DNA of 62,159 bases, taken from the NCBI GenBank assembly GCA_038106575.1, contig JAYOED010000006.1:1-62159 (forward strand). Direction: 5' to 3'. The position numbers and the translations under genes were made by a program. A model generated the notes under the pieces. The model searched no databases. It was not told where the DNA came from and saw only the letters and a list, made by a program, of their open reading frames with translations. This DNA comes from Burkholderiales bacterium. Lineage in GTDB: Bacteria > Pseudomonadota > Gammaproteobacteria > Burkholderiales > SG8-41. Of the stretch, positions 3,159 through 57,744 are shown piece after piece (positions within the stretch are counted from its first letter, which is position 1; each line of letters opens with the position of its first letter).

Positions 3159-3908
3159 ATGTCCATCGTCGCCCCCTGGCTGCACCTGGGCTATGTCATT
3201 CCGCATCTCTATACCGACATGGACGCCTACCAGTTCTATCGCGTCGCGCCTGACGGCATGATGCTGGTGACCACTGGACTGAATCTCAGGGAATATTCGC
3301 TCGCCGCTGTCGAATCCGAGCTGCCTGCGTTGTGGAGCGCATTTGACCGGCTGAAACACAAGAAGGTGGACCGTATCGCGTTGAGCGGCGTGCCGGTGGC
3401 CTCGGTGCTGGGCCGGAAAAAGATGTGCGAGATTCTCGACGAGGGCGCGCAGCGCACCGGCATCGCCTGCGACACCGACCTCGAGGCCCATATTGCGACG
3501 CTGCAGCATTTCGGTATCACCAGGCTGGCACTCGCCACGCGCTGGCCCGAGCACGTCAACGCCGCATTGTCGAACTACCTGAAGGAAGCCGGTATCGAAG
3601 TGGTATCGCTACGCGCGCAGGGACGCAACCTTGAGCAGAACAAACTGTCGAGCCCGCTCGCCGACCATGAGCTCGCGCTGGAACTAGGTCGTGCCGCACT
3701 CGCCGCAGCGCCCGAAGCGCAGGCCCTGCTGTTGCCGGGCGGACTGTGGTTTGCCATCCATGCCGTACCGACACTTGAAGCCGAATTCGGCAAACCCGTC
3801 CTGCTCAACATCCTGTCAACGACCTGGGCAGCGCTCAATGCCGCACCGAAGCCGCTGCAGCACAAGCCCGATCCGTGTTGGGGCAAGGTGCTGGGATGTC
3901 TTGCATGA
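3159..3908 (+). CDS. Asp/Glu/hydantoin-racemase-superfamily protein (maleate isomerase / arylmalonate decarboxylase-like)
   Basis: 249 aa. The architecture resembles maleate isomerase and AMDase (RLALATRW...YLKEAGIEVV...LGKPVLLNILSTTWAAL). AGGAG RBS upstream. The stop TGA overlaps the next gene's ATG (ATGA at 3905-3908). Confidence 0.65.
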   Translation: MSIVAPWLHLGYVIPHLYTDMDAYQFYRVAPDGMMLVTTGLNLREYSLAAVESELPALWSAFDRLKHKKVDRIALSGVPVASVLGRKKMCEILDEGAQRTGIACDTDLEAHIATLQHFGITRLALATRWPEHVNAALSNYLKEAGIEVVSLRAQGRNLEQNKLSSPLADHELALELGRAALAAAPEAQALLLPGGLWFAIHAVPTLEAEFGKPVLLNILSTTWAALNAAPKPLQHKPDPCWGKVLGCLA

Positions 3909-4945
3909 GCCTGCCGGGTTTCGCCAGCAATGTCATTGAGGTCGATGATGCCACCGCGGCGAATGAACTCTATCAGCGAAACGGCTGGACCGACGGCCTG
4001 CCTATTGTGCCGCCGACCGAAGAAGCGGTCGCACGTTTTCTTGAGGCGTCGCACTGCGCCCCAGATGATGTCATCGGCATCGAGCCGGTTCGCCGGCGCA
4101 CATTGACCGCAGAAAAAATCGCCATTGCCGCAGTGATGGCCGGCTGCCTGCCTGAATACCTGCCGGTGGTGCTGGCCGCGGTACGGGCGATGTGCCAGCC
4201 CGAATACGCACTGCATGGCAGCACGGCAAGCACCGGCGGCAGCGCACCCTTCCTCGTCGTCAACGGCCCGATCCGCAACGTACTCGGCATGAACGCGACG
4301 CATAATGTTCTCGCTAACGCCTGCCGCGCCAATGCCACCATCGGCCGCAGTATCCGCCTGATCCTGCTCAACGTGCTCGGTGGCATACCGGGCCAGCTCG
4401 ACCGCTCGACGCTGGGGCATCCGGGCAAGTTCACCTTCTGCATCGCGGAAGACGAGGAAGATTCACCGTGGCTGCCGCTGTCGGTGGAACGCGGAATTCC
4501 CGCCGGCACCTCGGCGGTGACCGCATTGCAGGTCGAGTCGCCGCACCAGATCATGAATGAGTGGACGCACGACCCGCGGGAAATCCTCGATACCTACGTT
4601 GCGGCGATGCGCAGCAACCTGCTGACCTATTCGATCTGGGAAGGCAACTACGCCTTTGTCATCCCCAAGCAGCACCGCGAGATTTTCGCTGCCGCCGGCT
4701 GGAGCAAGCAGAACATCCGCGACTACACCTTTGAGAAAGCCTGCGTGAAGCGCGGCGAGTGGCGCAGCGTCGGCAAGGCCGCGGTCGCCGGCCGCAAGGA
4801 CGAAGACCGGCTTTACCGCGCGCTGCGCGCGCCGGACGACCTGCTGGTGATCGCCGCCGGCGGACCAGCCGGCGGTTTCGGCGCCATCCTGCCGCCGTGG
4901 TACGGTAAGAAATCGCTCGCCGTGACGACGCCCATACAACCCTGA
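3905..4945 (+). CDS. uncharacterised DGLPxxPPT-motif protein, stand-alone partner of the UGSC selenoprotein
   Basis: 346-aa ORF, with the start set at ATG 3905 (ATGA overlap with the upstream stop). It is homologous by eye to the C-terminal ~350 aa of the proteins at 8386..10116 and 18403..20103 (GWTDGLPIVPPT, MAGCLPEYLPVVLAAV, VVNGPI). Confidence 0.7.
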   Translation: MSLPGFASNVIEVDDATAANELYQRNGWTDGLPIVPPTEEAVARFLEASHCAPDDVIGIEPVRRRTLTAEKIAIAAVMAGCLPEYLPVVLAAVRAMCQPEYALHGSTASTGGSAPFLVVNGPIRNVLGMNATHNVLANACRANATIGRSIRLILLNVLGGIPGQLDRSTLGHPGKFTFCIAEDEEDSPWLPLSVERGIPAGTSAVTALQVESPHQIMNEWTHDPREILDTYVAAMRSNLLTYSIWEGNYAFVIPKQHREIFAAAGWSKQNIRDYTFEKACVKRGEWRSVGKAAVAGRKDEDRLYRALRAPDDLLVIAAGGPAGGFGAILPPWYGKKSLAVTTPIQP

Positions 4946-4967: not shown

Positions 4968-5498
4968 ATGACCCTGCGCGTCCTCGACCCCCGGCAATCG
5001 GCCCACGGCGAAGCCCTGCGCCTCGCGCCGCCACTAGCCTCCCTCGACGGTGCCGTCATCGGCATGATCGACAACGCCAAGATCGGCACCGAGCGCCTGT
5101 TCGACTTCGTTGAAGAAATTCTCAAGAAGGAACACGGCGTGCGCGAATGCATCCGCCGCCGCAAGCCCGACGCATCACGACCGGTGCCGGAGGCCATGTT
5201 GCTGGAAATGCGCGGCGCCGATGCCGTGCTGGCGGCAATCGGCGACTGAGGCAGCTGCTCGTCGTGCAGTCTGCACGACGCAATCGCAGCAGAACGGCTC
5301 GGCATCCCGGCGGTGGCCATCATCACCGACCGCTTTGCGCGCACCGCTCAGTCGGTAAGCCAGGTCAACGGACTGAAGGACTATCCCTTTGCGGTGATTT
5401 CGCACCCGGTGGCCAACAACAACGATGAAGTGCTACGCGAGAAAGCGCGCATCGCGCTCGCCGACATCCTACCGATGCTGATGCAGCGATCCGCGTAA
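4968..5498 (+). CDS. UGSC-motif selenoprotein (in-frame UGA at 5247-5249 read as selenocysteine), 176 aa
   Basis: ORFs 4968..5249 and 5313..5498 share one frame and are separated only by a TGA. Reading through gives ...ADAVLAAIGD-U-GSCSSCSLHDAIAAERLGIPAVAIITD..., conserved in two paralogs that carry TGA at the same column. AGGAGAG RBS before ATG 4968. Hairpin at 5260-5280. Confidence 0.8.
5260..5280 (+). promoter_or_regulatory. putative bacterial SECIS hairpin
   Basis: The 8-bp perfect stem CGUCGUGC/GCACGACG with loop AGUCU starts 11 nt after UGA 5247-5249. Confidence 0.6.
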
Positions 5499-6796: not shown

Positions 6797-8386
6797 CTAG
6801 GGGTAGCGGCGAAAGCCAAAATCGGAATCGCTGGCCACTGCATCAAGCAGCTCCACTTCCCATCTCAGGTATTCACGCATTGCCTGTTCAACGTTGTCCT
6901 TGCGGTCGAGCGCGCGATAGCTCAGGTCATCGGCAGCGCCGGTCATACGCGCGTCCCCAGTTTCCAGTCCGTAACCCGCCAATTGCCACGCAGCAGTGCC
7001 GCCAGTAAGCGCCTTGACTGGGGTTGCAGTCAGGGTCGCCGCGTCGGCCGCAGCCAGACGCGCCAGCATTTCTTCGGCTGCCGTGAACACCAGCAGCGCC
7101 GCCTGGGGAATTTTTATCAGCTGGTCCCGTATCCGGGAACGCACCACGTGCCACGCACCCGGAATATGTCCCTCGCGATACTGCAGGCTGCTACCAAGGT
7201 CGGCCACCTGCGCCTTGCCGTCTGCCAGCAGGCTCTGCAATTCCGCCGCCGCCACTGTTGCGGAGCATGGCTGTGCGCCGTCGAGCAGTGTCACCGGCAC
7301 CGGCCCGCGCTCGGTCAACGATGCCTCATCACAGGCCAGCACGTGCACTTCATCGTGACCCATCTGCGCCAGCCATGCCGCGGTCATCGTTGCACGAACG
7401 CCATCATTGTCGGTTAGTACTACCACCGACGGACGCACCGCGATGAAGGTATCGGTTGCCTGCACCAGTTGTCCGCCAGGTGCGGATAAGGCTCCCGGCA
7501 GATGGCCGGCTTCGAATTCCTCAGGGGCGCGCACGTCCAGCAGGTACAGCGTGCGCTTGCCGTCGGCCCGCAGTGCCTGCAACCGGGCAGCATCAATACG
7601 GCGGATGCCGAAGCGCTGCGCCACACGCTCTGCCGCCTGCTGTGCCCAAGCCCTGCCTTTGGTCGAAGGCGGCGGAACCGCCTCGGTGCGGCCGTGGTTC
7701 AGCTGCAGGCCAGCCAGCTTCCAGCCCTGGGTGCCGTCCTTCAGTGCATAGACCGGGTTCGGAAAACCAGCATTGATCAGCACCTGAGCGCCGATGATGC
7801 TGCGCGTGCGTCCGCCGCAGTTGACCACAACCGTCGTCTGCGCGGAACGCACGAAATCGGTCATGCGGTACGGTAGCTCCGCGCTCGGACAATCCCAGGC
7901 ACCGGGTATGCTGTTGCGACGGAATTCCGCCATTGGCCGGCTGTCGACGACCACCATGTCCCTGCTAGATTTCATCCACGCGTCGAGTTCGGTTGCCGTA
8001 ACTTCGCGCGGCGCATCTTCGTGCTGGATGTATTCGCCGAAAGCCTTGCTCGGCACGTAAACACCGGTGTAGAGCCGGAATCCCGCGGCCTTCCACGCCG
8101 ACGTTCCGCCATCGATCAACTGCACGTCGGCATAGCCGCCCGCCAGCAGTTTCACCGCAGCTAATTCCGCCAGGCCTTCGCCGCCGTCACAAACGACGAT
8201 ACGCACGTTCTTGCGCGGCAGCAGCGCCTGCACACGCAACTCGAGCACGCTCAACGGTACATTCGACACCCGCAGCAGATGACCATCTCCCGAATAGACA
8301 CCCTCCTCGCGTACGTCGAGTACGGCAATTTCTTCGCCATCGTCGAGCAGTCCCCGTAGTTGTCGAGGCGTGATCCGTCGCACCAT
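6797..8386 (-). CDS. four-domain rhodanese-like sulfurtransferase
   Basis: 529 aa from ATG 8386 (MVRRITPRQLRGLL...). Four rhodanese repeats are present. The active-site loops carry Cys in repeats 1 (VVCDGGEG) and 2 (VNCGGRTRS) but not in repeats 3 (LTDNDGVR) or 4 (FTAAEEM). The ATG overlaps the upstream TGA stop (TGATG). The 612-aa track ORF is an upstream extension. Confidence 0.8.
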   Translation of the reverse strand: MVRRITPRQLRGLLDDGEEIAVLDVREEGVYSGDGHLLRVSNVPLSVLELRVQALLPRKNVRIVVCDGGEGLAELAAVKLLAGGYADVQLIDGGTSAWKAAGFRLYTGVYVPSKAFGEYIQHEDAPREVTATELDAWMKSSRDMVVVDSRPMAEFRRNSIPGAWDCPSAELPYRMTDFVRSAQTTVVVNCGGRTRSIIGAQVLINAGFPNPVYALKDGTQGWKLAGLQLNHGRTEAVPPPSTKGRAWAQQAAERVAQRFGIRRIDAARLQALRADGKRTLYLLDVRAPEEFEAGHLPGALSAPGGQLVQATDTFIAVRPSVVVLTDNDGVRATMTAAWLAQMGHDEVHVLACDEASLTERGPVPVTLLDGAQPCSATVAAAELQSLLADGKAQVADLGSSLQYREGHIPGAWHVVRSRIRDQLIKIPQAALLVFTAAEEMLARLAAADAATLTATPVKALTGGTAAWQLAGYGLETGDARMTGAADDLSYRALDRKDNVEQAMREYLRWEVELLDAVASDSDFGFRRYP

Positions 8387-10116
8387 CAAATCCGGCACTC
8401 GTCGGCGGTGCAACCCAGATCGCGATCCGATTCGGCCAGCAGCCGGTCGAATGACTCCGGCGTGCGGATCACCCGTCCCACGACTGCAGGCGAATGCGCC
8501 TGCAGCCACTGGCTGTGCGTCGGATGGTCGCCGCCGGCGACCACCAGGATCAGGTTGTCGGGTTTCTGCGCGATCGGCCACGGATCGAGCCTGATGCTGT
8601 CGCGCGCCACCGGATTGGCATCGATCTCGATCCACGCCGGCCCGCCGCCGCGCTTGAGTTGCGCCATCGGAATCTTCGAATTTTCCCAGAGAAAATCACG
8701 CAGCTTCTTCGGCGTCCAGCCGAGCTTCGCCATCATGCCCGCGACCACCGGCGAGATCAGCATCGCGCCGGGCGTGCCCTTCTCCCATCCTGCCAGCGCG
8801 GCAAGATTCGGCGTGCGCATGAAATCCGCCATGCGCCACAGGCCCTGGGTGATGTCCTCTTCCGGCGTTTCCTTTTTTGCGCCACGGCGGCGGATGTTGC
8901 TGACGCCGCTGGCGAAAAACACCGACACTGCGTTTGTACCGGGCTCGAAACCGTGGCGCTGGGTCGCATGCGGCGCCCAGCCCTCGGGCAGGCTCGCCTC
9001 ATCCTCGGCAAACACAGCGTTGGTGTAGCGCATCGCGCCGAAGATCGCCATGGTGCCGATGCCCGGCAGCGCGCCGCCGACGTTCTGCTGCAGCAGGCGC
9101 AGCGCGCGGCCGATGCTGGCACCGGCGGGCCGCTGCGGATCAGGGCCGAGACAGCCAAAACCGGAATTGAGGCGGATGTCCTCCGCAATCGGGCCGTTGA
9201 CGATGACGACCGGAAAAGGGCTGCCCGAAGTCGCCTGCACCTGATCGAACAGCGTTGCGGGATCGAGGCAGGCCTCAACCGCAGCAACCAGCACCGGCAG
9301 GTACTCGGGTCGACCCCCGGCCATCGCCAGCGCCACCGCGCAGGTCTCGACCGTGGTGACGCCGCCGCGCGGCGGGAACTTGCCCAGCACCTGTGTGCGC
9401 GGGTAAGCCGAGCCGCGCAGTATCCAGTCGACGCGCTCGCGTGTCGCCGGCCACACCGGCAGGCCGTCGCCCCACAGATTGGTGATCAGCAGGTTGTTGG
9501 CTTTCTGCAGCGCGTCCTCATAGGTTTTCCCCTCCACGCTCAACATTGGCAGTTCGCCGTCTGCGGATTGCGCGTAATCGGATTTCCATTTCATCAATCC
9601 GTTGTAGAACTCCTTCTTGCGGGTGGAAATCGCCGTCAGATCGCTTCCCGGCAGGAACATATCGATCGGAAACGTCACCATCGCCGCATCGGGCGCAAGA
9701 CCGAGGCCCGACACCGCATTCTTCATCACGCCGACAAAATCCGTCCGCGTCAGGGTGACGGTGGGTATTCCCAGTGTTTCTATCCTCGCGGCAGCACGGC
9801 CGCAAGCGGTGGCGCAGGAGCCTCAGGCCGCGTTGCCGACGATGACCGCTTCAACGCCGCTTTTCTGGACCAGCGCAGCGGTCTCCTCGGTGGGAATCAG
9901 CACATTACCCTGGGGATAGGCATCGATCGGCAGCAGTTCCGCAGTCGGATAATCGGCCTTGATCAGATCGCGCAGCAGCGGCAGCATGCGAAACGCCTGC
10001 CACTGCTCGTTACTGACGAAACCGATGCGCTTGCCGTCGAGGGTATCGATGCGTGGCGCAAACGGCAGGGTGACCTCCAGCGCGCCGGACGGATCATGAA
10101 ATTCAAGTGTGACCAT
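8386..10116 (-). CDS. fused UGSC-motif selenoprotein + DGLPxxPPT domain (UGA at 9823-9825 read as Sec), 576 aa
   Basis: ORFs 9823..10116 and 8386..9729 share one frame and are joined across a TGA: ...VEAVIVGNAA-U-GSCATACGRAAARIETLGIPTVTL... The C-terminal part has NLWGDGLPVWPAT, MAGGRPEYLPVLVAAV and IVNGPI. GGAGG RBS before ATG 10116. Confidence 0.8.
9785..9806 (-). promoter_or_regulatory. putative bacterial SECIS hairpin
   Basis: Stem CUUGCGGC/GCCGCGAG (8 bp, one G-U pair) with loop CGUGCU, starting 17 nt after the UGA. Confidence 0.55.
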
Positions 10117-16810: not shown

Positions 16811-18403
16811 TCAGTGCGGTGCACGCCTGATCATTTCGCCCGGCAGCGCATCGCTGCGGTTGCCGTGTTCTAGTACTGGCACGCCGTTGACCATAACCGC
16901 GACAACGCCAACCGCGAACTGGTGCGGGTCAGCATAGGTCGCACGTTCGGCGATGGTTACCGGGTCAAATACGGTCACATCGGCACGGCAGCCTGGACGC
17001 AACAGACCTCGGTCAGCCAGCCCAAGCGCCGCAGCCGAACGCCCTGTCATCTTGGATACCGCGGTTTCCAGCGGCAGCAGGTTCTCCTCGCGCACGTAGC
17101 GCCCGAGCACGCGGGCGAAGGTGCCGTAGAACCGCGGATGCGGTTTACCCTGGCCGGTAATCCCGGTCGGTGCAACTGCGTTGCCGTCCGAACCCACCAT
17201 CACTTCGGGAGCCCGCACGAATGCACGCACGTCATCCTCGGAAATTGATTCGACGACCACCCGAGTCTGGCCGCGGTCGGCAATAATGTAGTCGAGCGCT
17301 GCGTCGAACGGGTCCTTGTTCTGTTCCAGCGCAATCTGCGCGATGGTTTTGCCGGCGTGATGTCCAAGATCAGGCGATATCGAAATACGCACCGCATCCC
17401 AGGAGCGGATTCTTCCAAAATTGTTCAACCCGCCTGCGGCGATCTCGTCACGAACCCGTGCACGAACCGCCTCGTCGCCCAGCCTTACCAGCATGGCATC
17501 GATACCGTCCTGCTGCAGCCACGACGGCATCAGATTGCGCAGCGGATTGGATGCGGCGGTGTACGGATACTGGTCGCAGTCAATCTGCACGCCATCCGCA
17601 CGCGCTGCGGCTAGCCGCGCGAGGAAACGCTCCACAGTGCCCCAGTTGTCAGTACCCGACACCTTGGCATGCACAATCTGCACATGGACTCCCGTCTGCG
17701 CGCCGAATTCAATCGCCTCCTCGGCGGCATCGAACACCGCGTTGGCTTCGTCCCGCAGATGGGTGAAATAGCGCGCACCGTGGCGCCGCAGTACGCGACC
17801 GAGTTCGACCATCTCTTCGCCGCGCGCATACGACCCGGGCGCGGTAAACAGTCCTGACGACAGCCCCAGCGCTCCGGCTGCGAGCGCCTCCTCGAGCAAG
17901 GACACCATCAGCGCAAGCTCCACCGGTGTGGGTTTTCGAGCCTCCATACCCATGGCCATCAGGCGCAGCGTGTTGTGACCGACCAGCATTACGCGATTGA
18001 CAGCTGTGGCCGGATAGTGTGCCGCATAATCAGCGTAGCTCGTATCGCGGAATTCCAGCCACGGCGCGCTAGGCGAAAGGTATTGGCGTAGCGCGGCGGC
18101 GCGTCCCGGCAGGCAGGGTGCACAGGAATAACCGCAATGCCCGATCACTTCGGTAGTCACACCCTGGCGAATCTTGCTCTCAGCCTGCGGCATCAGCGGC
18201 AAAGTCCAGTCCGAATGTGTCTTGATGTCGATAAAACCGGGGGCAACCACCAGGCCCCGCGCATCGATCACCCGCGCACCGGTAACAGGCAGGTCACGAC
18301 CGACCGCTGCGATACATCCGTCTCGCAGCGCTACGTCAGCCGACTGTGGCGGGCCGCCGGTGCCGTCAATGACGGTACCGCCACGTACAACGATCGACTC
18401 CAT
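16811..18403 (-). CDS. N-acyl-D-amino-acid deacylase (D-aminoacylase) family amidohydrolase
   Basis: 530 aa from ATG 18403 (MESIVVRGGTVIDGTGG...APGFIDIKTHSD...EVIGHCGYSCAP). The ATG overlaps the upstream selenoprotein's TGA stop (TGATG). Confidence 0.85.
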   Translation of the reverse strand: MESIVVRGGTVIDGTGGPPQSADVALRDGCIAAVGRDLPVTGARVIDARGLVVAPGFIDIKTHSDWTLPLMPQAESKIRQGVTTEVIGHCGYSCAPCLPGRAAALRQYLSPSAPWLEFRDTSYADYAAHYPATAVNRVMLVGHNTLRLMAMGMEARKPTPVELALMVSLLEEALAAGALGLSSGLFTAPGSYARGEEMVELGRVLRRHGARYFTHLRDEANAVFDAAEEAIEFGAQTGVHVQIVHAKVSGTDNWGTVERFLARLAAARADGVQIDCDQYPYTAASNPLRNLMPSWLQQDGIDAMLVRLGDEAVRARVRDEIAAGGLNNFGRIRSWDAVRISISPDLGHHAGKTIAQIALEQNKDPFDAALDYIIADRGQTRVVVESISEDDVRAFVRAPEVMVGSDGNAVAPTGITGQGKPHPRFYGTFARVLGRYVREENLLPLETAVSKMTGRSAAALGLADRGLLRPGCRADVTVFDPVTIAERATYADPHQFAVGVVAVMVNGVPVLEHGNRSDALPGEMIRRAPH

Positions 18404-20103
18404 CAACGTCGCCCCGGCATCGCAATGGCCTTGCACACTGGAAACCCCAGTACCCCGTTGTGCGCGAACACGTAAATGCTGTTGCGGCCGAGATCGCCGG
18501 TGACAACGATCTGATAATCCCCGGGCCTCCATACCACGGGCACCAGCCGCTCCGGATCATCGGACTCGTGGAACAGCTTTGGAATGCGCCCGGCCTCGTG
18601 TTCCTCCTTCAGATTCCATGTCGGCTTCTGCGTCCAGTCGCGGAGAATGCGCTCGAAACGGTGAGCGGGCATGCGCGCCCGCGCAAACAGTTCCTCGCGG
18701 AATTTCTGCTTCGACCAGCCGCTGCCGGCGATGGTCTCGGCGACGATCGGCGACATCAGAATCAGCGGCCGCAGCGTGTCGTAGCCCTGCCCTACCGAAA
18801 ACATGATCTGCCATGAATACTGGCTGATCACCGCGTCGGCGATGTAAGGCATCAACTCTTCGGGTTTCGATCCCGACACCGACGAAATGTGGTTGCCGCC
18901 GGTGTAGCGCCCGACCGACAGCGCGTTGGTGCCTGCGGCGAAACCGTAATCGGCGCAGTTCGGCGTCCAGCCGATTTTCTTCACCACGTCCTCGTTCTCG
19001 GCCACCACCACGCGCCAAGTGTTGCCGAAAGTGGCCTTGTCGTTGCCGTGCGGCAGGAAGCCAGCGATGTTGCGCAGGCACAGCCGCCAGAAGCGGCCGA
19101 CCGTGGAATTAGCCTGGAAACCATCGCGCATCACGCCCTGCGTGTAATTGAAACCGAGTTCCTTGATCACCGGGCCGTTGAGGACGATCAGGTTCTCGCC
19201 GCCGGGGGTATTGCCGCTGTGCTCTACGCCATAGTTGTGATCCGCCATCGCTTCCACCGCCGCCACCAGCACCGGCATGTACTCCGGGCGGCAGCCCGCC
19301 ATTACGCCGTTGACTGCGGCGCTCCACACCGTCGCCGTGCGGTTGTCGGGCAACAGCACGCCAATGACTTCATCGGGTTTGCGGTCGGTATATTTTAAGA
19401 AAGCCTCGACCTTCTCCACCGTAGGCGGCACGACCGGCAGCCCGTCCGACAGCTGGTTGGCGATAAAATATTCGTTGATCTCTTCAAATGAGCCGGTGCA
19501 GACGACATCACGCGCCCCCGGTTCGCCGCTGACGGTTTTCGCCGCCGGCATGGTCAGCAGGTTGTCGATCACGCTGTTAAGCGTCAGCTCGCGCACGTTC
19601 TGCTGCAACGCTTCCTTGCTCTGCAAGCCAGGATGGCCACGCACCGGTGCCACCGCAATGTTCGGAAAACCTAAACCCTGCGAGGCCGCCTTTGCCAGCG
19701 TCATGAAGCTCTCACAGACCAGCGTCGAGGAGGGAATCCCTGCGCCTTCCGCCGCCACACTCGCCCGCAACACGGCGGGCGTGCAGCTTCCTCAACAACC
19801 CATCCCGGAAACGACGGCGTCGGCACCGAGCTCGCGAAGCTTCTGCGGCAGGTTGGCCACCACATTACGCTCGTCACTGCCATGGGTATTGCCGAACAGA
19901 TCCCAGTGCAGGAATTTCACGCCCGGATATTTCGCCGCCAGGCTTTTCTCAAGCTGCTCGAACACCTCGTTGCCGCGGAACACATAGTCCCACACCCAGG
20001 CGATGGTTTTGCCTTGCAGCGTATCGAGCCGTTTCGCCAGCGGTTTGACCTTGGCCTGGCGCGGACCGCGCGGCCACAGCGCCGCGTATTGCCGATCTGT
20101 CAT
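18403..20103 (-). CDS. fused UGSC-motif selenoprotein + DGLPxxPPT domain (UGA at 19792-19794 read as Sec), 566 aa
   Basis: ORFs 19792..20187 and 18403..19773 share one frame and are joined across a TGA: ...ADAVVSGMGC-U-GSCTPAVLRASVAAEGAGIPSSTL... The C-terminal part has NQLSDGLPVVPPT, MAGCRPEYMPVLVAAV and VLNGPV. Start set at ATG 20103, preceded by an AGGAG RBS. Confidence 0.8.
19762..19781 (-). promoter_or_regulatory. putative bacterial SECIS hairpin
   Basis: 7-bp perfect GC-rich stem CGCCCGC/GCGGGCG with loop CGUGUU, starting 11 nt after the UGA. Confidence 0.6.
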
Positions 20104-20225
20104 GCGAACTCCTGATTTTTCTTTTGATGGAACAGCATAACGCAACATTGCTCGGCGCCAGACACGGTTTCCACACTGCGGCGCCATGTCGCTAGAATCG
20201 ATGCTTCACCCCTATCCGGTATTGC

Positions 20226-21397: not shown

Positions 21398-22366
21398 TTA
21401 TTTCAGTTTCAGTCCGACCGACTTCACCACCTTCGCCCAGGTATCGATTTCCTCGTTGAAGCGTTTGGTGAATTCTTCCTGCGTGTTGGCGACCACATCG
21501 AGGCCCTGGGTCAGCAACAGCTTGTCGGTCTTCGGATCAGTGAGGATGCGCGAGACAGCCTGCTGGATTTTTACAGCGATGGCCTTGTCGGTCTTGCCGG
21601 GCAGAAACAGCGCATACCAGTTCTCCACACCGAAGCCGGGCACACCCGATTCGGCGATGGTCGGATACTCAGGCAGCGCAGGGGTGCGCTTCGGACCAAC
21701 GACCGCCAGCACGCGCAAGCGGCCCTTGGTGAAGAACGGCCGCGTCGAAATCACACTCGCCACCGTCAGCGTGATACGCCCGGCTACCGTATCGGTAATG
21801 CTCGGCGCCGTTCCCTTGTACGGCACGTGGGTCATCTTGATGCCGGTCATCTGCGAGAACATTTCCTGCGTCAGATGCTGCGCCGAGCCCAGCCCAGACG
21901 ATGAATAGAACAGTTCGTTGGGGCGCGCCTTGGCGAACGCGACAAGTTCCTTGATGCTTTTCACCGGCAGCGACGGATGAACCACCATGACGCCGGGCGA
22001 AACCACTGCCATCGTCACCGGCAGCAGATCGGTGCGGGCGTTGTAGCCGAGCTTCAACAGGCTCGGCGTGATGCTCACGCCCGCCGAGGTCATCAGCAGA
22101 GTGTAACCGTCGCCCGGCGATTTGGCGACGATGTCGGCGGCGATGGTACCGCCGGCGCCCGGACGGTTATCAGCCACCACGTTCTGTCCCCAGGCTTCGC
22201 CCAGCTTCGATGCGATGAAACGCCCGGTGGTATCGACGCCGCCGCCGGGGGCGAGCGCGATGATCATGCGGATCGGTTTGGTCGGAAAGTTCTGCGCGAA
22301 CGCCGCGCCCGTCATCAAACTCCCCAGCAGTATAGTGCCCAAGGCGACCGAAATCATTTTTTTCAT
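21398..22366 (-). CDS. Bug/TctC-family tripartite tricarboxylate transporter substrate-binding protein
   Basis: 322 aa from ATG 22366 with an AGGAGG RBS. Signal peptide MKKMISVALGTILLGSLMTGAAFA, then FPTKPIRMIIALAPGGGVDTTGR, typical of Bug receptors. Confidence 0.85.
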   Translation of the reverse strand: MKKMISVALGTILLGSLMTGAAFAQNFPTKPIRMIIALAPGGGVDTTGRFIASKLGEAWGQNVVADNRPGAGGTIAADIVAKSPGDGYTLLMTSAGVSITPSLLKLGYNARTDLLPVTMAVVSPGVMVVHPSLPVKSIKELVAFAKARPNELFYSSSGLGSAQHLTQEMFSQMTGIKMTHVPYKGTAPSITDTVAGRITLTVASVISTRPFFTKGRLRVLAVVGPKRTPALPEYPTIAESGVPGFGVENWYALFLPGKTDKAIAVKIQQAVSRILTDPKTDKLLLTQGLDVVANTQEEFTKRFNEEIDTWAKVVKSVGLKLK

Positions 22367-22430
22367 TGTTGCCTCCTGTTGATTGGTTCTGCGAACTGCT
22401 TTGTAAAACAAGTCTGAAATCGGTTGGTTG

Positions 22431-23213
22431 TCACTCCCACAGCCGCTCGGGTAGCGGCAGCCCGGCGAGATCGGCGGCGGTCAGCGGCCGGTCGGGGGTG
22501 ACGCCGATGCGCTCTAATACCTCAATCAGCTGCCGGCAGTGCTGCGCCGAATGCCAAGTCACCCGCTCAAGCACTAGGTGCGCGGGGGTTTCTCCAAAAT
22601 AAGTCTTGAGCACGCGTTCGAGTTCGCGATCTTCGATCCCGGTCCACCAGGATTCGAAGCGCTTCCACACGCCTTCGCCGTAGCACGCGATGTCGTCGCC
22701 GCTCTGTAATGCTTCCGGCGGCTCGTTATCGGCAATCTTCACCGAATACTCGGCGCCGTCCCAGGTTTCGAGGAACGACTCGCCGATGCGGAACACGTGG
22801 TAGCACAGCGTACGAATTACACGCTCGCGATGCGGAATCACGCGGTCACGAAAATGCTCCGCCGGAAACTGGCGCGCGTAACGCGCCGCAGCGGCAAACA
22901 CCATTCCGTATTTTCTGTACAGCTGTTCCGGAGAAAGGCGATCCTTACCCGGCAGCGGCAGTCTGGCAAACTTGGCAAAGGGATCGAGCATCTGGCCGAA
23001 TGCGTATTTATCGCCCTTCGCCAGCACCGGAACCTTGCGGATGCCGTATTTGTTGAACAGCAATTCACGGCCGCCCGGGTCGTTCAGCACATCGATCACG
23101 AGCATGTCCACACCATTTTTCGAAAGAAACTCTTTCGTGCGAAGGCAGCTACTTCACCCGGGCTGGGTGAAATAAAGAAATTTGTCGGCGGGGATGTCGG
23201 TCAATGTCGTCAC
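22431..23213 (-). CDS. glutaredoxin-like (U-x-x-C) + DinB/YfiT-like domain selenoprotein candidate (UGA at 23154-23156), ~260 aa
   Basis: The frame upstream of track ORF 22431..23111 stays open except for one TGA: (V)TTLTDIPADKFLYFTQPG-U-SSC-LRTKEFLSKNGVDMLVIDVLNDPGGRELL..GIRKVPVL. This is a Grx/Trx fold with Sec at the first redox position. The C-terminal domain has a DinB-like HSAQH motif. The start (GTG 23213 or TTG 23204) is uncertain. Confidence 0.65.
23121..23137 (-). promoter_or_regulatory. putative bacterial SECIS hairpin
   Basis: Stem CGAAAG/CUUUCG (6 bp) with loop AGUUU, starting 17 nt after the UGA. It is weaker and more AU-rich than the other three. Confidence 0.4.
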
Positions 23214-28915: not shown

Positions 28916-29878
28916 ATGAAAAAAATCATACTCAGCATTTTCTTTCTTTGTATCTGCGTCCCGGCCTTTGCGCAAAACTGGCCCAATCGGCCGATCCGCG
29001 TACTGGTGGGCTTTGCGCCCGGAGGCACTTCCGACCTATCGGCACGCCTGCCGGCAGATATGGTATCGCGGGAACTAGGACAGCAGGTCATCGTGGAGAA
29101 CCGCCCCGGCGGTTCCGGCAGCGTTTCCATCGAGGCACTGGTGCGCAGCGCGGCGGATGGCTATACCTTGGTTGTCGGTTCGGACTCGGCGTTCTACCAG
29201 CCGGTGCTCAATCCGAAACTGCCCTACCGCGCCGACAAGGACCTGGCGCCGATCACCATCCTCGTCAATCAGCCGATCATCATCGCCGTGCATCCGGCTC
29301 CCGGCTGGAAATCGATCGCCGACATGCTCAAGGCCACGCGCGCGCAACCCGGCGAAGTGCCGTATGCCATTTCATCGCCAACCGGTACCCAGGCACTCGC
29401 CGGACTGCTGTTTTTCCGGCTGGCCAAGTCCAAACTGACACCAGTACCATTCAAGGGCGGCGGTCAAGCGATTGTCTCCCTGGTCAGCGGCGAGGTGCCT
29501 ATCGCGGTTCTGGGTTCGGGTCCGATTGTTCCGCAGGCCAAAGCCGGACGCGTCAAGATGCTCGCCGTCACCTCCGGCAAGCGCTCGAAAGCGCTGCCCG
29601 ACGTACCAACGCTGGCTGAGGTCGGCTACCCAGAAATCGACATCGTGCAGTGGTTCGGCATCATGGGCAAAGCCGGTACTCCGAACGATGTAATCGGCAA
29701 ACTCTCCGCCGCCTACAACAAGGCGCTGGCTGATCCGAAAATTGAACAACGCCTGTTCAGTGTCGGTGCCGAAACTGCAGGTGGCTCGCCGAGAGAAATG
29801 CTGGTGCGCATGAAGGCTGAGATGGCGGTGTGGGCTAAGGCCGCGAAGGAAGCCGGAATGGGCAAGCGGCGCAGGTAA
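28916..29878 (+). CDS. Bug/TctC-family substrate-binding protein
   Basis: 320 aa, signal peptide plus NWPNRPIRVLVGFAPGGTSD. GAGGAGG RBS upstream. Confidence 0.85.
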   Translation: MKKIILSIFFLCICVPAFAQNWPNRPIRVLVGFAPGGTSDLSARLPADMVSRELGQQVIVENRPGGSGSVSIEALVRSAADGYTLVVGSDSAFYQPVLNPKLPYRADKDLAPITILVNQPIIIAVHPAPGWKSIADMLKATRAQPGEVPYAISSPTGTQALAGLLFFRLAKSKLTPVPFKGGGQAIVSLVSGEVPIAVLGSGPIVPQAKAGRVKMLAVTSGKRSKALPDVPTLAEVGYPEIDIVQWFGIMGKAGTPNDVIGKLSAAYNKALADPKIEQRLFSVGAETAGGSPREMLVRMKAEMAVWAKAAKEAGMGKRRR

Positions 29879-37175: not shown

Positions 37176-38141
37176 ATGAAACAGTTCATCGGAATTGCCG
37201 CAGTGCTCACCTTGCTTTCCACTGCAACCACCACGGTTCAGGCGCAGGATTTTCCGAACAAACCGATACGCATCGTGGTCGGTTTCGCAGCCGGCGGTGG
37301 CGTCGACAAGTCTGCGCGCTTCATCGGCAAACACCTGACCGATTCGATGGGTCAGCAAATCATCGTCGATAACCGTCCGGGTGCAGCCGGCAACATTGCC
37401 GCCAGTGCGGTCGCCAAATCGCCGGCGGACGGCTACACCCTGCTGATGGCCAACGCCACACTGTCGATGCCGGGGCTGTTCAAGAACATGCCGTTCGACG
37501 TGCGTACCGACCTGGATCCGGTAAGCCTGCTGGCCATCGGCCCCTCGGTGCTGGTCGCGCATCCGTCGATGCCGGTCAAATCCCTGAAAGACATGCTGGC
37601 ACTGGCGAAATTACGTCCAAACGAACTGCTCTACGGGTCCGGTGGTGTCGGCAACATCACTCACCTTGAAATGAGTCTGCTCAACGCGCTGACCAAGACC
37701 CGGATGGTGCACGTGCCGTACAAGGGCAGCGCGCCGTCAATCGTTGGGCTGCTCACTGGCGAAGTGCACGTACTGTTCTCATCAATACCAGCCGCACTGG
37801 GACAGATCAAGGCAAAGAAAATGCGTGCCGTTGCCGTGTCGACCGCGAAGCGCAGCAGCGCCCTGCCCGATGTGCCGACTGTTGCCGAATCAGGCGTAGC
37901 TGGTTATGACGCGGCCAGTTGGTATTTTGTACTTGCACCCGGAAAAACCCCAAAACCCATCGTCGACAAGCTGAGTGGCGCGATTGTCAAAATCGTGGGC
38001 TCCGCCGAAATCAAGTCCACCCTGATCAGGGACGGCTTCGAGCCCGCAGGCTATACGCCCGAAGTCTCGGCAAAGTTTCTGCAGAACGAACTGTCCAAAT
38101 GGGCCAACGCCATTCGCGTCGCTGGCATCAAGCCTGAATAA
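37176..38141 (+). CDS. Bug/TctC-family substrate-binding protein
   Basis: 321 aa, signal peptide plus DFPNKPIRIVVGFAAGGGVD. AGGAGGAG RBS upstream. Confidence 0.85.
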   Translation: MKQFIGIAAVLTLLSTATTTVQAQDFPNKPIRIVVGFAAGGGVDKSARFIGKHLTDSMGQQIIVDNRPGAAGNIAASAVAKSPADGYTLLMANATLSMPGLFKNMPFDVRTDLDPVSLLAIGPSVLVAHPSMPVKSLKDMLALAKLRPNELLYGSGGVGNITHLEMSLLNALTKTRMVHVPYKGSAPSIVGLLTGEVHVLFSSIPAALGQIKAKKMRAVAVSTAKRSSALPDVPTVAESGVAGYDAASWYFVLAPGKTPKPIVDKLSGAIVKIVGSAEIKSTLIRDGFEPAGYTPEVSAKFLQNELSKWANAIRVAGIKPE

Positions 38142-41707: not shown

Positions 41708-42862
41708 ATGAAAATAATCAAACTGATACCGCAAAGTAAGTACGGCTGGCTGCGTGCAACCGCCTGCGCTCTCGTGTTCTGCTTCACGGCTGCCAACGCG
41801 GCCCAGCAAGCCCCGACACAACCTTCTAGTATCGACTCCGTCGCCCGCCTGATCGCCGGCCTGACGCCGTCCAATCCTGAGCATGTTGAACTGGCTGCCG
41901 GCAACTCGTGGCAAAAACACAGCACAGCCATGCTGAAATCATGGTCAAAGGTCCGCGACGGCCAGCTAGCCGCGATGAAAACCTGGCGCGCCGCGGAGCT
42001 ACCGGCAAAATGCCCCGTCGGCAACACACTGTTCTACCCGTTCAGCGGCCCCGACTTCCTCAATGCATGGACGCTGTTTCCAGATTGCGAAACCTACGTG
42101 ATGTTCGGCCTCGAACCAATCGGCAAGATGCCTGATCCGTCAAAAATGGGTCCGAAAGAATTCGCGAAACTGCTGGCTACCGTGCGCGATGCGATGGCCA
42201 ACCTGTTCGAGCGCAATTACTTCGTCACCAACACCATGCGCCGCAACCTGCGCACCGAGCAGCTGCGCGGCGTGGTGCCGATCTTCACGATGTCGATGGT
42301 GTTTTCGGGCGTCGAAGTGGTCGGTATCGGACCAGCGCCGTTTCCAAAATTAACCGGAAAGAAATCCCGGCTCGACGGCATGGCCATCGATTACCGGGTG
42401 CCGGGCAGCGGGCGCACGCAGCGGGTGATCTACTATTCGGTCGACATTTCGGACAAGGGCCTTGCTGACTATCCGGAATTCCTGACCTACCTTCGCGGGC
42501 TGACGCCGACCACGACTTTGGTCAAGGCGGCTTCGTACCTGATGCACATCAAGGAGTTCAGCAAGATCCGCGGTGTATTGCTTGATACCAGCGAATTCCT
42601 GCTGCAGGACGATACCGGCATTCCATACAACTTCCTGGTAAAGCGCGGATTTACCGTGCAGCCCTACGGTATCTACAAGAAACCGATCCCGCCGTTCGAG
42701 CCGCAGTATCAGCCCTCGCTGAACGCGCTCTACCAGTCGACCAAGGCACCGGCGCTGCCGTTCCGCTTTGGGTATCACACCTCCCTGGCTGAGAGCCGCT
42801 CGACCCTGCTGATCGGACGGCGCACGCAGCCGGCTCCGCAACAACGATCGGATGCCCGTTAG
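41708..42862 (+). CDS. secreted hypothetical protein
   Basis: 384 aa, with a clear signal peptide (…ALVFCFTAANA-AQ). I do not recognise any family motif. Confidence 0.6.
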   Translation: MKIIKLIPQSKYGWLRATACALVFCFTAANAAQQAPTQPSSIDSVARLIAGLTPSNPEHVELAAGNSWQKHSTAMLKSWSKVRDGQLAAMKTWRAAELPAKCPVGNTLFYPFSGPDFLNAWTLFPDCETYVMFGLEPIGKMPDPSKMGPKEFAKLLATVRDAMANLFERNYFVTNTMRRNLRTEQLRGVVPIFTMSMVFSGVEVVGIGPAPFPKLTGKKSRLDGMAIDYRVPGSGRTQRVIYYSVDISDKGLADYPEFLTYLRGLTPTTTLVKAASYLMHIKEFSKIRGVLLDTSEFLLQDDTGIPYNFLVKRGFTVQPYGIYKKPIPPFEPQYQPSLNALYQSTKAPALPFRFGYHTSLAESRSTLLIGRRTQPAPQQRSDAR

Positions 42863-45770: not shown

Positions 45771-45912
45771 GCGATCTGATGCGCAGCGATAGGCCACCTA
45801 AAAGCCGTTACAATTCCGGACCGGGTTGCGGGCGATAGTCAGGGGCATTGCCCGCCGCTGCCCCGCCCTGCACTTCCACCCTGAACACGTCCCGGATGCC
45901 CTCAGCCTGCGC

Positions 45913-57180: not shown

Positions 57181-57744
57181 TTATTTCTTCAACCAGTCGG
57201 CGAACTTCTTGCGGAATTTCTCGACCTTGGGCGATACGACGTACTGGCAGTAAGGCTGGCGCGGATTATTCTCGAAATACTCCTGGTGATATGCCTCGGC
57301 CTCGTAAAACTGTACTGCAGGGGAAATTTCAGTAACGATCGGGTGCGCGTAGGCCTTTTCCGCAGTCAGCCGCTGCAAGGCCTTTTCGGCAGACACCTGC
57401 TGCGCCGAAGAATGGTAATAAATCACCGAACGATACTGGGTTCCGACATCGTTGCCCTGCATGTTTAGCGTGGTCGGGTCATGTATCGAAAAGAACACTT
57501 CGAGCAGGTCATCGTAGCGGATGACTGAAGGATCAAACGCTACTTGCACCACTTCGGCATGACCTGTATCACCGCCGCAGATGTCCTGATACGTAGGATT
57601 CAGTGTCTCCCCCCCGGTGTAACCGGATTCGACGGATATCACCCCGTGAAGGCGGTCGAACACGGCTTCCAGGCACCAAAAGCAGCCGCCCCCGAGAGTG
57701 GCGACTTCACGGGTACCGGTATTTTCCACCGCAACGGTCATCAC
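57181..57744 (-). CDS. msrA: peptide-methionine (S)-S-oxide reductase
   Basis: 187 aa, with the GGGCFWC active site and GYTGG...GHAEVVQV motifs. Confidence 0.9.
   Translation of the reverse strand: MMTVAVENTGTREVATLGGGCFWCLEAVFDRLHGVISVESGYTGGETLNPTYQDICGGDTGHAEVVQVAFDPSVIRYDDLLEVFFSIHDPTTLNMQGNDVGTQYRSVIYYHSSAQQVSAEKALQRLTAEKAYAHPIVTEISPAVQFYEAEAYHQEYFENNPRQPYCQYVVSPKVEKFRKKFADWLKK

What the first reader, a model, noticed from the sequence alone, without database searches (positions are those of the whole stretch)
18403..20103. Third UGSC selenoprotein fusion (UGA at 19792-19794, minus strand) with a C-U-G-S-C motif
ORFs 19792..20187 and 18403..19773 are in one frame (offset 414 nt). Read-through gives ...ELGADAVVSGMGC-U-GSCTPAVLRASVAAEGAGIPSSTLVCESF... 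A perfect 7-bp stem CGCCCGC/GCGGGCG with loop CGUGUU starts 11 nt after the UGA (19762-19781). ATG 20103 has an AGGAG RBS. Here a Cys directly precedes the Sec (C-U-x-x-C), so a selenenylsulfide could form with either neighbour.
Basis: partly seen in the sequence, partly recalled or inferred. Interest (0 to 1): 0.85.

Follow-up and report, generated by a model that had tools for sequence, protein, structure and literature searches.

The report
Known UGSC selenoprotein fused to uncharacterised domain
The in-frame UGA is almost certainly a real selenocysteine codon in a 566-residue protein of the already described UGSC selenoprotein family, joined to a large uncharacterised domain; gene callers routinely cut this gene in two, and its function is still unknown.

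Summary
On the minus strand, 20103..18403 is one 566-codon frame interrupted only by TGA 19794-19792 (G-C-U-G-S-C). It has an AGGAG ribosome-binding site and a 7-bp hairpin starting 11 nt after the UGA.

Evidence for selenocysteine:
- The Pfam UGSC domain spans the UGA.
- The TGA is invariant in 55 of 55 orthologues, whereas their terminal stops vary.
- More distant homologues keep the TGA or carry Cys at that site.
- The six hairpin codons have no synonymous variation, which is the lowest value in the gene.
- Two orthologues carry a compensatory change in the stem.
- The hairpin meets the published bacterial SECIS model.

The family is known, and a UGSC fusion to a domain called "Unknown_1" was reported in 2008.

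New here:
- The C-terminal domain has no Pfam family and no convincing match among solved structures.
- It also occurs as a separate gene (3875..4945) next to a standalone UGSC gene.
- The UGSC module is a remote homologue of the PrdB/GrdB selenoproteins.
- Distant relatives sit beside a thioredoxin-reductase-like gene.

The substrate is unknown. The selenocysteine machinery was not seen in the window.

The parts
20109..20113 (-). Shine-Dalgarno AGGAG, 5 nt upstream of the start codon
18403..20103 (-). Full read-through coding sequence: 566 codons (ATG 20103-20101, one internal UGA) plus the terminal TGA at 18405-18403
   Evidence: Both halves show a coding signature: diversity by codon position is 0.20/0.15/0.44 upstream of the UGA and 0.18/0.12/0.43 downstream. 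Mean amino-acid identity to the 54 orthologues is 77% on each side.
19582..20079 (-). UGSC domain (residues 9-174), an alpha/beta module that contains the redox motif
   Evidence: Pfam PF24696 scores 93.8 bits against a cut-off of 25. NCBIfam NF041046 scores 46 bits, below its cut-off of 125. Profile comparison with PrdB-like GRDB proteins gives 96.9% probability.
19795..19797 (-). Cys103 codon, directly before the Sec (G-C-U-G)
   Evidence: TGT or TGC in 53 of 55 orthologues and Ala in 2. The position varies in the wider family.
19792..19794 (-). UGA read as selenocysteine (residue 104)
   Evidence: TGA in 55 of 55 orthologues, whereas the terminal stops are 21 TGA, 20 TAA and 14 TAG. TGA is also kept at this site in homologues of 38-48% identity. 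Full-length homologues carry Cys here.
19783..19785 (-). Cys107 codon, the likely resolving Cys of the U-x-x-C motif
   Evidence: It aligns with the second Cys of the PrdB-like U-P-x-C motif.
19762..19781 (-). Core of the bacterial SECIS hairpin: 7-bp stem CGCCCGC/GCGGGCG and loop CGUGUU, with 17 nt between the UGA and the loop
   Evidence: -13.6 kcal/mol, z = -3.3. Codons 108-113 have no synonymous variation in 55 orthologues. L021 and L059 carry a compensatory G-C to A-U change. It meets the model in PMC13188914.
19754..19787 (-). Extended SECIS helix (lower stem GCUGCA / UGUGGC around the core)
   Evidence: -20.4 kcal/mol, z = -2.5
18424..19521 (-). C-terminal uncharacterised domain (residues about 195-560) with motifs DGLPVVPPT (19446-19420), MAGCRPEY (19302-19279; Cys271 at 19293-19291), NGP, ANSTVGR and AENE
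   Evidence: No Pfam or NCBIfam hit and no sequence hit in the PDB. It is homologous to the separate gene 3875..4945 (E = 6e-44) and to the C-terminal part of paralogue B. Conserved columns are listed.
3875..4945 (+). Gene X: the same uncharacterised domain as a separate protein, directly upstream of standalone UGSC gene A
   Evidence: BLASTP against C gives 34% identity, E = 6e-44; against B, 32%, E = 7e-35. At least 7959 database relatives, all unnamed or 'hypothetical'.
4968..5498 (+). Paralogue A: standalone UGSC selenoprotein with UGA 5247-5249 and a 9-bp hairpin with loop GUC
   Evidence: NF041046 scores 131.9 bits, above its cut-off of 125
8386..10116 (-). Paralogue B: second fusion of a UGSC domain and an X-like domain, with UGA 9825-9823 and an 8-bp hairpin with loop CGUGCU

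Best explanation
Window 20103..18403 (minus strand) is a single gene for a 566-residue selenoprotein.

Shown:
- UGA 19794-19792 is decoded as selenocysteine with the help of a bacterial SECIS hairpin at 19781-19762.
- The N-terminal 175 residues or so are a UGSC-family domain. The Sec sits in a strand-loop-helix U-x-x-C motif, here G-C-U-G-S-C.
- This module is a remote homologue of the Sec-containing core of the PrdB/GrdB reductase selenoproteins.
- The C-terminal 370 residues or so are a conserved, abundant domain with no family assignment and no convincing structural relative. It also occurs as a separate protein encoded next to standalone UGSC genes.

Inferred, at about 40% likelihood:
- The two modules form one redox enzyme.
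- The Sec/Cys pair cycles between selenol/thiol and selenenylsulfide.
- It is re-reduced by a thioredoxin-reductase-like flavoprotein. That gene is adjacent in many distant relatives but not in this genome's neighbourhood.
- The Sec/Cys pair delivers or resolves a reduction carried out on an unknown small substrate in the C-terminal domain. That domain has a nearly invariant Cys (MAGC-x-PEY) and invariant Asp, Arg and Glu.

Cys103 next to the Sec is a lineage-specific addition. It could form a vicinal Cys-Sec bond, as in the Gly-Cys-Sec-Gly motif of mammalian thioredoxin reductase (a resemblance recalled from memory, not tested).
For: Gene anatomy.

Domain: PF24696 covers residues 9-174 at 93.8 bits, so it spans the UGA.

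Selenocysteine:
- TGA is kept in 55 of 55 orthologues of 64-93% identity. Their terminal stops are 21 TGA, 20 TAA and 14 TAG.
- TGA is kept at the same site in three Oscillospiraceae homologues of 43% identity and in two metagenome homologues of 48% and 38% identity.
- Full-length homologues have Cys at the site, for example P0242 GIGCCGSCTPAV.

SECIS:
- Synonymous entropy is 0 for codons 108-113 against a gene mean of 1.01. This is the gene-wide minimum for a 6-codon window.
- A Cys-form homologue with the identical peptide TPAVLRA uses different codons at 4 of the 6 positions.
- There are compensatory changes in L021 and L059, and between the A and A-like paralogues.
- The loop CGUG is shared by B and C in different codon phases.
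- The hairpins meet the published consensus.

Link between the two modules:
- They occur split in X-then-UGSC order in the window.
- They occur split in UGSC-then-X order in several relatives, and fused in others.

PrdB/GrdB link:
- hhalign gives 96.9% probability, E = 1.7e-10, with both redox residues aligned.
- 30 column-shuffled controls score at most 16.5 against 73.3.
- Two of three PrdB-like reads tested match PF07355.

Flavoprotein link: a roughly 300-residue Pyr_redox_2 protein with a CA[AS]C motif lies next to the fusion gene in P0242, P0255, P0251, 14 betaproteobacterial loci and Oscillospiraceae locus L060; in L057 it lies about 2.4 kb upstream.

Structure: the model of the full-length Cys homologue is confident, with pLDDT 93 and pTM 0.92.
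Against: - No tRNA-Sec or selA/B/D was found in the window (Pfam scans 19, 31, 61, 62, 95). The rest of the genome could not be examined.
- No Rfam SECIS model matches.
- Over a longer stretch the hairpin's folding energy is not unusual for this GC-rich DNA.
- The thioredoxin-reductase-like neighbour is absent from this window and from relatives of 72% identity or more.
- Paralogue B lacks the conserved Cys of the C-terminal domain (MAGGRPEY), so a Sec-to-Cys relay cannot be universal.
- No PrdA/GrdE-type pyruvoyl partner lies nearby, and PF07355 itself does not hit the protein.
- The downstream amidohydrolase, whose start overlaps the stop codon, is not conserved in relatives, so it gives no reliable functional clue.
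Confidence: 0.8

Rival explanations
1. UGA 19794-19792 is a true stop. The locus then holds two genes: a 104-residue peptide (or 132 residues from ATG 20187), and a 456-residue protein restarted at GTG 19773. This is how gene callers annotate it.
For: All of the 120 best database relatives are deposited as fragments of about 430-470 residues that start just after the UGA. In L077 and L078 the gene caller reports two adjacent ORFs. No selenocysteine machinery was seen in the window.
Against: - The UGSC domain model runs straight across the UGA, so each half alone would be a broken domain.
- Homologues with Cys at the site are single proteins of 563-588 residues.
- The internal TGA never changes to TAA or TAG in 55 orthologues, whereas the real stops do.
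- A hairpin constrained at synonymous sites follows the UGA.
- There is no ribosome-binding site before GTG 19773; that stretch is the hairpin itself.
Confidence: 0.04
2. It is a genuine selenoprotein, but the UGSC domain is only a thioredoxin-like carrier or sensor of redox state. The C-terminal domain would then be a non-redox enzyme or binding module, for example a hydrolase, regulated or protected by the Sec/Cys switch.
For: The best, though weak, structural neighbours of the C-terminal domain are cyclic amide hydrolases with the Toblerone fold (E = 5e-3, TM 0.21-0.24). An amidohydrolase and racemase-type genes lie nearby in this window. Paralogue B lacks the domain's conserved Cys.
Against: The structural match is at noise level (TM about 0.2). 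The amidohydrolase neighbour is not conserved. The conserved neighbour in distant lineages is a disulfide-reductase-type flavoprotein. The Sec module is homologous to the catalytic Sec module of PrdB/GrdB-type reductases.
Confidence: 0.12
3. It is a pseudogene or an assembly or sequencing error that created an in-frame stop.
For: The window is probably from a metagenome-assembled genome: its closest relatives are MAGs, and P0001 comes from a single 67.9-kb NCBI contig.
Against: The same TGA occurs at the same codon in 55 independent assemblies and in other phyla. Both sides of the UGA are under purifying selection.
Confidence: 0.01

Closest known systems
UGSC family (seleno)protein (Pfam PF24696, NCBIfam NF041046; the 'UGSC-containing protein' of Zhang and Gladyshev, PMC2398784, PMC1976440, PMC13188914)
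   Same: It has the same domain (93.8 bits), the same U-G-S-C motif, the same excess of Sec over Cys forms, and the same non-marine, freshwater bias. Paralogue A in this window is a canonical member (131.9 bits against a cut-off of 125).
   Different: The finding's protein is 566 residues, not about 150-180. It scores only 46 bits on the equivalog model and carries a further domain of about 370 residues. It also has an extra Cys directly before the Sec.
'UGSC/Unknown_1 fusion' reported from the Global Ocean Sampling data (PMC2398784, section on novel domain fusions, Fig. S1A)
   Same: A UGSC selenoprotein fused to a conserved domain of unknown function that contains a conserved Cys and also occurs as a separate protein in aquatic bacteria. 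All of these features hold here.
   Different: Fig. S1A is an image, and the stored sequence file is truncated. Identity between Unknown_1 and this C-terminal domain is therefore probable but could not be checked.
PrdB/GrdB selenoproteins of D-proline and glycine/sarcosine/betaine reductases (Pfam PF07355 GRDB), including the marine PrdB-like family
   Same: They share the strand-U-x-x-C-helix-'E..GIPTV'-strand module with the Sec and the resolving Cys in register (hhalign 96.9%, E = 1.7e-10). Both classes depend on a thiol/disulfide-type reductant (the latter from established knowledge).
   Different: PF07355 does not hit the protein. The N-terminal part of GRDB is absent. There is no PrdA/GrdE pyruvoyl subunit gene nearby. 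The X-like domain is unrelated to PrdB (hhalign probability 0.3%).
C-terminal Gly-Cys-Sec-Gly redox centre of mammalian thioredoxin reductase (from memory)
   Same: The tetrapeptide G-C-U-G, with Cys and Sec as neighbours, could form a vicinal selenenylsulfide.
   Different: Here the motif is internal and lies in an unrelated fold. It is followed by a second Cys at +3. The vicinal Cys is absent from most of the family.

Membership tests
UGSC family (Pfam PF24696) | Match to the Pfam model above the gathering score | tested here: met
   93.8 bits against 25, residues 9-174. 56 of 76 aligned relatives also match.
UGSC family (NCBIfam NF041046 equivalog) | Score at or above the curated cut-off of 125 bits | tested here: not met
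   46.4 bits for the finding's protein. Standalone paralogue A passes with 131.9 bits. The fusion is therefore a divergent subfamily, not an equivalog.
UGSC family | U/C-G-S/T/A/G-C motif at the start of a helix after a hydrophobic strand | tested here: met
   GMGC-U-GSC. In the model of homologue P0242, strand 104-110 is followed by helix 115-128.
Bacterial selenoprotein gene | In-frame UGA conserved among orthologues, with coding constraint on both sides | tested here: met
   55 of 55 TGA. Third-position diversity is 0.44 and 0.43 on the two sides, against 0.12-0.20 at positions 1 and 2.
Bacterial selenoprotein gene | Homologues with Cys at the Sec position | tested here: met
   P0242, P0248, P0251, P0254, P0255, P0270, P0274, P0277, P0287 and others
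Bacterial selenoprotein gene | Bacterial SECIS: 3-9 nt loop, 4-16 bp upper stem, G in the first two loop positions, 16-37 nt from the UGA to the loop, MFE at or below -7.5 kcal/mol (PMC13188914 Fig. 2A) | tested here: met
   Loop CGUGUU (6 nt, G at position 2 followed by U), 7-bp stem, 17-nt spacing, -13.6 kcal/mol. Synonymous-site constraint and compensatory changes support it.
Bacterial selenoprotein gene | selA, selB, selC (tRNA-Sec) and selD present in the genome | not testable with these tools
   There is no tRNA in the window and no Sel gene among the ORFs scanned. The rest of the genome is not available.
Bacterial selenoprotein gene | Selenium is actually incorporated | not testable with these tools
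   Needs 75Se labelling or mass spectrometry.
GrdB/PrdB reductase selenoprotein B (Pfam PF07355) | Match to PF07355 | tested here: not met
   No hit at E <= 0.01
GrdB/PrdB reductase selenoprotein B (Pfam PF07355) | Homology of the Sec-containing core | tested here: met
   hhalign 96.9%, E = 1.7e-10, 86 columns, U-x-x-C in register. Shuffled controls reach at most 16.5 against 73.3.
GrdB/PrdB reductase selenoprotein B (Pfam PF07355) | Adjacent pyruvoyl proprotein subunit (PrdA/GrdE) and other grd/prd genes | tested here: not met
   None among the neighbours in the window or in the annotated contexts of homologues
Thioredoxin-fold oxidoreductase (as predicted for UGSC in PMC2398784) | Thioredoxin-like fold of the Sec-containing domain | tested here: inconclusive
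   Foldseek with the full-length model gives no thioredoxin-fold hit among the 50 best matches. The local hits to the N-terminal part are flavodoxin-like FMN reductases and azoreductases (probability 0.92-0.99, TM 0.37-0.47 relative to the target). The UGSC domain was not modelled on its own.
UGSC/Unknown_1 fusion (PMC2398784) | UGSC domain followed by the conserved 'Unknown_1' domain, which has a conserved Cys and also occurs as a standalone protein | tested here: inconclusive
   The architecture, the conserved Cys (90% or more of sequences) and the standalone form all match. The published alignment is an image, so sequence identity could not be checked.

The most novel reading that the evidence does not exclude
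The UGSC module plus the uncharacterised C-terminal domain (fused here, split elsewhere), together with a dedicated thioredoxin-reductase-like flavoprotein, form a widespread and unstudied selenium-dependent reductase system. It would be found in freshwater and soil Burkholderiales and in some Firmicutes. It would work like the Stickland-type proline and glycine reductases, but with a catalytic domain of a new fold in place of the pyruvoyl subunit, acting on an imported organic acid or amino-acid derivative.
Probability: 0.3. Interest if true: 0.65.

Novelty: new member of a known kind. Interest (0 to 1): 0.35.

Why it matters
This is a clear case of a selenoprotein gene that annotation pipelines routinely cut in two. 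All of the 120 closest database entries are C-terminal fragments. Of the few that carry a name, most are called 'hypothetical' and one is called 'UGSC family (seleno)protein'.

UGSC proteins are among the most abundant selenoproteins in aquatic metagenomes, yet they have no known function. Three leads from this work make that function testable:
- The UGSC module and the uncharacterised domain occur both fused and as adjacent genes, so they are functionally linked.
- The UGSC module is homologous to the PrdB/GrdB Sec core.
- A thioredoxin-reductase-like gene recurs next to the fusion gene in distant lineages.

The C-terminal domain is very abundant, with at least about 8000 sequence clusters. 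It has no Pfam entry and no convincing relative among solved structures, so it is a reasonable target for structural and biochemical work.

Tried and rejected
- Rfam, whole window at gathering scores and 19650-19850 at E <= 10: no SECIS or other relevant match.
- tRNA scan of the window: none found.
- Exact look-up of the window's own protein fragment P0001: not on record.
- PDB sequence search with the C-terminal fragment and with X: no hits at E <= 1.
- Foldseek against the PDB, full-length model: only FtsZ and flavodoxin-like hits with query TM below 0.2.
- Foldseek against the PDB, X alone: best hits are Toblerone-fold cyclic amide hydrolases at E = 5e-3 and TM 0.21-0.24, and chorismatase and SelD/HypE at lower probability. 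I treat these as not significant.
- Pfam on all 76 members of the X alignment: only the UGSC domain.
- hhalign of the X domain against the PrdB-like and UGSC profiles: probability below 1%. An earlier run was invalid because the slice still contained UGSC columns.
- Downstream amidohydrolase as a functional clue: rejected, because it is absent from all 68 related loci.
- TctC/Bug solute-binding genes are frequent neighbours, but they are so numerous in these genomes that I give them little weight.
- Checking whether 'Unknown_1' of the 2008 paper is this domain: the figure is an image, and the stored sequence supplement is truncated before the UGSC entries.
Full report
**1. Observation**

On the minus strand, ORFs 19792..20187 and 18403..19773 share a frame. 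Translating 20103..18403 gives 566 codons with one internal stop. The peptide around it reads ...AVVSGMGC*GSCTPAVLRAS....

AGGAG lies at 20113-20109, 5 nt upstream of ATG 20103. Ten nt after UGA 19794-19792 comes CGCCCGC-CGUGUU-GCGGGCG at 19781-19762. On its own this hairpin folds at -13.6 kcal/mol with z = -3.3. Within a 66-nt context the z-score is only -0.5, because the DNA is GC-rich. Folding energy alone therefore proves little.

A six-frame scan finds exactly three TGA-GSC sites in the window:
- A: + strand, 4968..5498, a standalone 176-residue protein.
- B: - strand, 10116..8386, 576 residues.
- C: the finding.

B against C gives 29% identity over 554 residues (E = 7e-50). A against C gives 25% over 177 residues (E = 7e-13).

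**2. Is the UGA a selenocysteine codon?**

(a) Domain. Pfam PF24696 (UGSC) matches residues 9-174 at 93.8 bits against a cut-off of 25, so the domain spans the UGA.

(b) Database fragments. The 120 best database relatives are all entries of about 430-470 residues that begin just after the UGA. Gene callers split this gene everywhere. One of these fragments is named 'UGSC family (seleno)protein' in GenBank (MGE0559542.1).

(c) Conservation of the TGA. A scan of species-representative genomes returned 68 loci. Almost all are labelled as Burkholderiales or Betaproteobacteria MAGs, and a few carry other labels. Among the 55 orthologous sequences compared (the window plus 54 loci, 64-93% identity), the codon is TGA in every one. 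Their terminal stops are 21 TGA, 20 TAA and 14 TAG.

(d) Coding signature. Both sides of the UGA evolve as coding sequence. Diversity by codon position is 0.20/0.15/0.44 upstream and 0.18/0.12/0.43 downstream. Mean identity is 77% on each side.

(e) Distant homologues.
- Three Oscillospiraceae homologues (43% identity) keep TGA with the same GVGC*GSC context.
- Two further metagenome homologues (48% and 38% identity) read GVGC*GGC and APGC*GTC.
- Full-length homologues of 563-588 residues carry Cys at the site, for example P0242 GIGCCGSCTPAV and P0255 GVGACGSCTPAV.

(f) RNA-level constraint.
- Codons 108-113 (TPAVLR) form the hairpin and have no synonymous variation in 55 orthologues.
- The gene mean is 1.01 bits, and only 1.8% of degenerate conserved codons have zero entropy.
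- This 6-codon window is the lowest in the whole gene.
- The Cys-form homologue P0242 encodes the same TPAVLRA with different codons at four positions.
- L021 and L059 carry a G-C to A-U double change in the stem.
- The A and A-like paralogue hairpins differ by a C-G to G-C swap.
- B and C share the loop CGUG in different codon phases and at different distances from the UGA.

(g) Consensus. All three hairpins meet the published bacterial SECIS constraints: loop of 3-9 nt, stem of 4-16 bp, G in the first two loop positions, 16-37 nt spacing, and MFE at or below -7.5 kcal/mol (PMC13188914).

Not shown: Rfam has no matching model. The window holds no tRNA-Sec or sel genes (and the Pfam scans). 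The rest of the genome was out of reach.

**3. What the protein is**

The N-terminal domain belongs to the UGSC family. This family has been known from metagenomes since the mid-2000s and is still listed as uncharacterised (PMC1976440, PMC2398784, PMC9312934, PMC13188914). The Global Ocean Sampling paper counted 255 Sec forms against 21 Cys forms and found a non-marine bias. It also noted a fusion to a conserved domain, 'Unknown_1', that carries a conserved Cys. That is very probably this architecture. The figure is an image, so I could not confirm it.

Protein C scores only 46 bits on the NCBIfam equivalog NF041046 (cut-off 125), whereas standalone A passes at 131.9.

The C-terminal 370 residues or so have:
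- no Pfam or NCBIfam match, in the window proteins or in any of 76 relatives;
- no sequence relative in the PDB;
- no convincing fold match, although the models are confident. The full-length Cys homologue has pLDDT 93 and pTM 0.92. X alone has pLDDT 89 and pTM 0.90. The best Foldseek hits have TM of about 0.2.

The domain is abundant, with at least 7959 clusters found for X and 4108 representatives for C. Its conserved columns include DGLPxxPPT, a Cys in MAGC-x-PEY (90% or more of sequences), NGP, an invariant Arg in IGR, and Glu in AE-x-E.

ORF 3875..4945, directly upstream of standalone UGSC gene A, is this same domain as a separate protein (34% identity to C, E = 6e-44). Related genomes carry the two modules as X-then-UGSC pairs, as UGSC-then-X pairs and as fusions, often several per locus. 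This mix of split and fused forms is good evidence that the two modules work together.

**4. Leads on mechanism**

- PrdB/GrdB homology. A profile of UGSC domains aligns with a profile of marine PrdB-like selenoproteins at 96.9% probability (E = 1.7e-10). The Sec, the +3 Cys and the following 'E..GIPTV' strand are in register. Two of three of these reads tested match Pfam GRDB PF07355 above its threshold. Thirty column-shuffled controls reach a score of at most 16.5 against 73.3, and a reversed-sequence control scores 12.3. The Sec module is therefore a remote homologue of the catalytic Sec core of the Stickland-type reductase B proteins.
- Flavoprotein neighbour. A flavoprotein of about 300 residues, of the thioredoxin-reductase type (Pyr_redox_2, motif C-A-[AS]-C-D), lies next to the fusion gene in several widely separated lineages. 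It is divergent from P0242 and directly downstream of P0255 and P0251. It is directly downstream in 14 betaproteobacterial loci of 64-70% identity. It is upstream in Oscillospiraceae: 335 nt in L060 and about 2.4 kb in L057.
- It is absent next to the window's gene and its relatives of 72% identity or more, and nothing like it is in the window.

From this I infer a redox enzyme in which electrons flow from NAD(P)H to the flavoprotein, then to the Sec/Cys pair, then to a substrate bound in the C-terminal domain. The substrate is unknown, and I rate this mechanism at about 40%.

Points against a simple Sec-to-Cys relay: paralogue B has Gly in place of the domain's Cys, and no PrdA/GrdE partner is present.

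**5. The C-U feature**

Cys103 is TGT or TGC in 53 of 55 orthologues and Ala in two. It is also present in the Oscillospiraceae homologues, in L077 and L078, and in P0242. In most other family members the position is A, G, S, D, N or L. It is a lineage-specific addition. The tetrapeptide G-C-U-G resembles the redox centre of mammalian thioredoxin reductase. That comparison is from memory and was not tested.

**6. Verdict**

It is a member of a known selenoprotein family, in an architecture noted in 2008. I therefore file it as a new member of a known kind, with moderate interest (0.35). Its value lies in correcting the annotation and in three testable functional leads for an abundant family of unknown function.

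Noticed in passing
window 16811..18403 (-): An Amidohydro_3 gene of the D-aminoacylase type starts with an ATG that shares one base with the selenoprotein's TGA stop (TGATG). No related locus has this gene. In the closest relative, L001, CinA follows directly. It looks like a recent insertion into the operon.
   Followed up: partly
window 6797..~8398 (-): Paralogue B is followed directly by a protein with four rhodanese domains. These are sulfur or selenium transferase-type domains, with weak hits to rhodanese-related selenoprotein and MnmH models.
   Followed up: partly
window 8386..10116 (-), motif MAGGRPEY: Paralogue B has Gly where 90% or more of the family has the conserved Cys of the C-terminal domain, yet it keeps the Sec codon and a SECIS hairpin.
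   Followed up: no
window 3159..3908 (+): An arylmalonate-decarboxylase / Asp-Glu-racemase-type gene overlaps the start of gene X. Together with X and the standalone UGSC gene A it may form a small operon.
   Followed up: no
L017:8325-8810: In one MAG the N-terminus of X (QRNGWTDGLPIVPPTE...) runs straight into the UGSC_A sequence in one frame. This is either an apparent deletion that creates a different X-UGSC junction or an assembly artefact.
   Followed up: no
P0284 (1254 aa) and P0362 (753 aa): Two unusual relatives turned up. P0284 has two tandem copies of the X-like domain, Cys/Asp-rich repeats, a Pro/Glu-rich tail and a C-terminal hydrophobic segment. P0362 has a long low-complexity N-terminal extension that looks eukaryotic. 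Both have Cys in place of Sec.
   Followed up: no
window 45826..51555 (+): A 1909-residue ORF carries duplicated UvrA-type ABC ATPase, UvrA interaction and DNA-binding domains. It is about twice the length of a normal UvrA.
   Followed up: no
window 57181..57744 (-), 58892..59530 (+), 59559..60695 (+): Two methionine sulfoxide reductase A paralogues flank FBPase (57804..58802), and one is followed by a pyridine nucleotide-disulfide oxidoreductase. This is a second thiol-redox cluster, unrelated in sequence to the thioredoxin-reductase-like partner of the UGSC fusions.
   Followed up: no
window 21398..22411 (-), 28916..29878 (+), 37176..38141 (+); many loci: TctC/Bug-family solute-binding genes are very frequent around UGSC and X genes, both here and in relatives. 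Whether this exceeds their high background frequency in Burkholderiales was not measured.
   Followed up: partly
window 41708..42862 (+) and 22431..23111 (-): ORFs of 384 and 226 residues have no Pfam match. The 226-residue ORF is conserved upstream of the fusion gene in L011 and L014.
   Followed up: no
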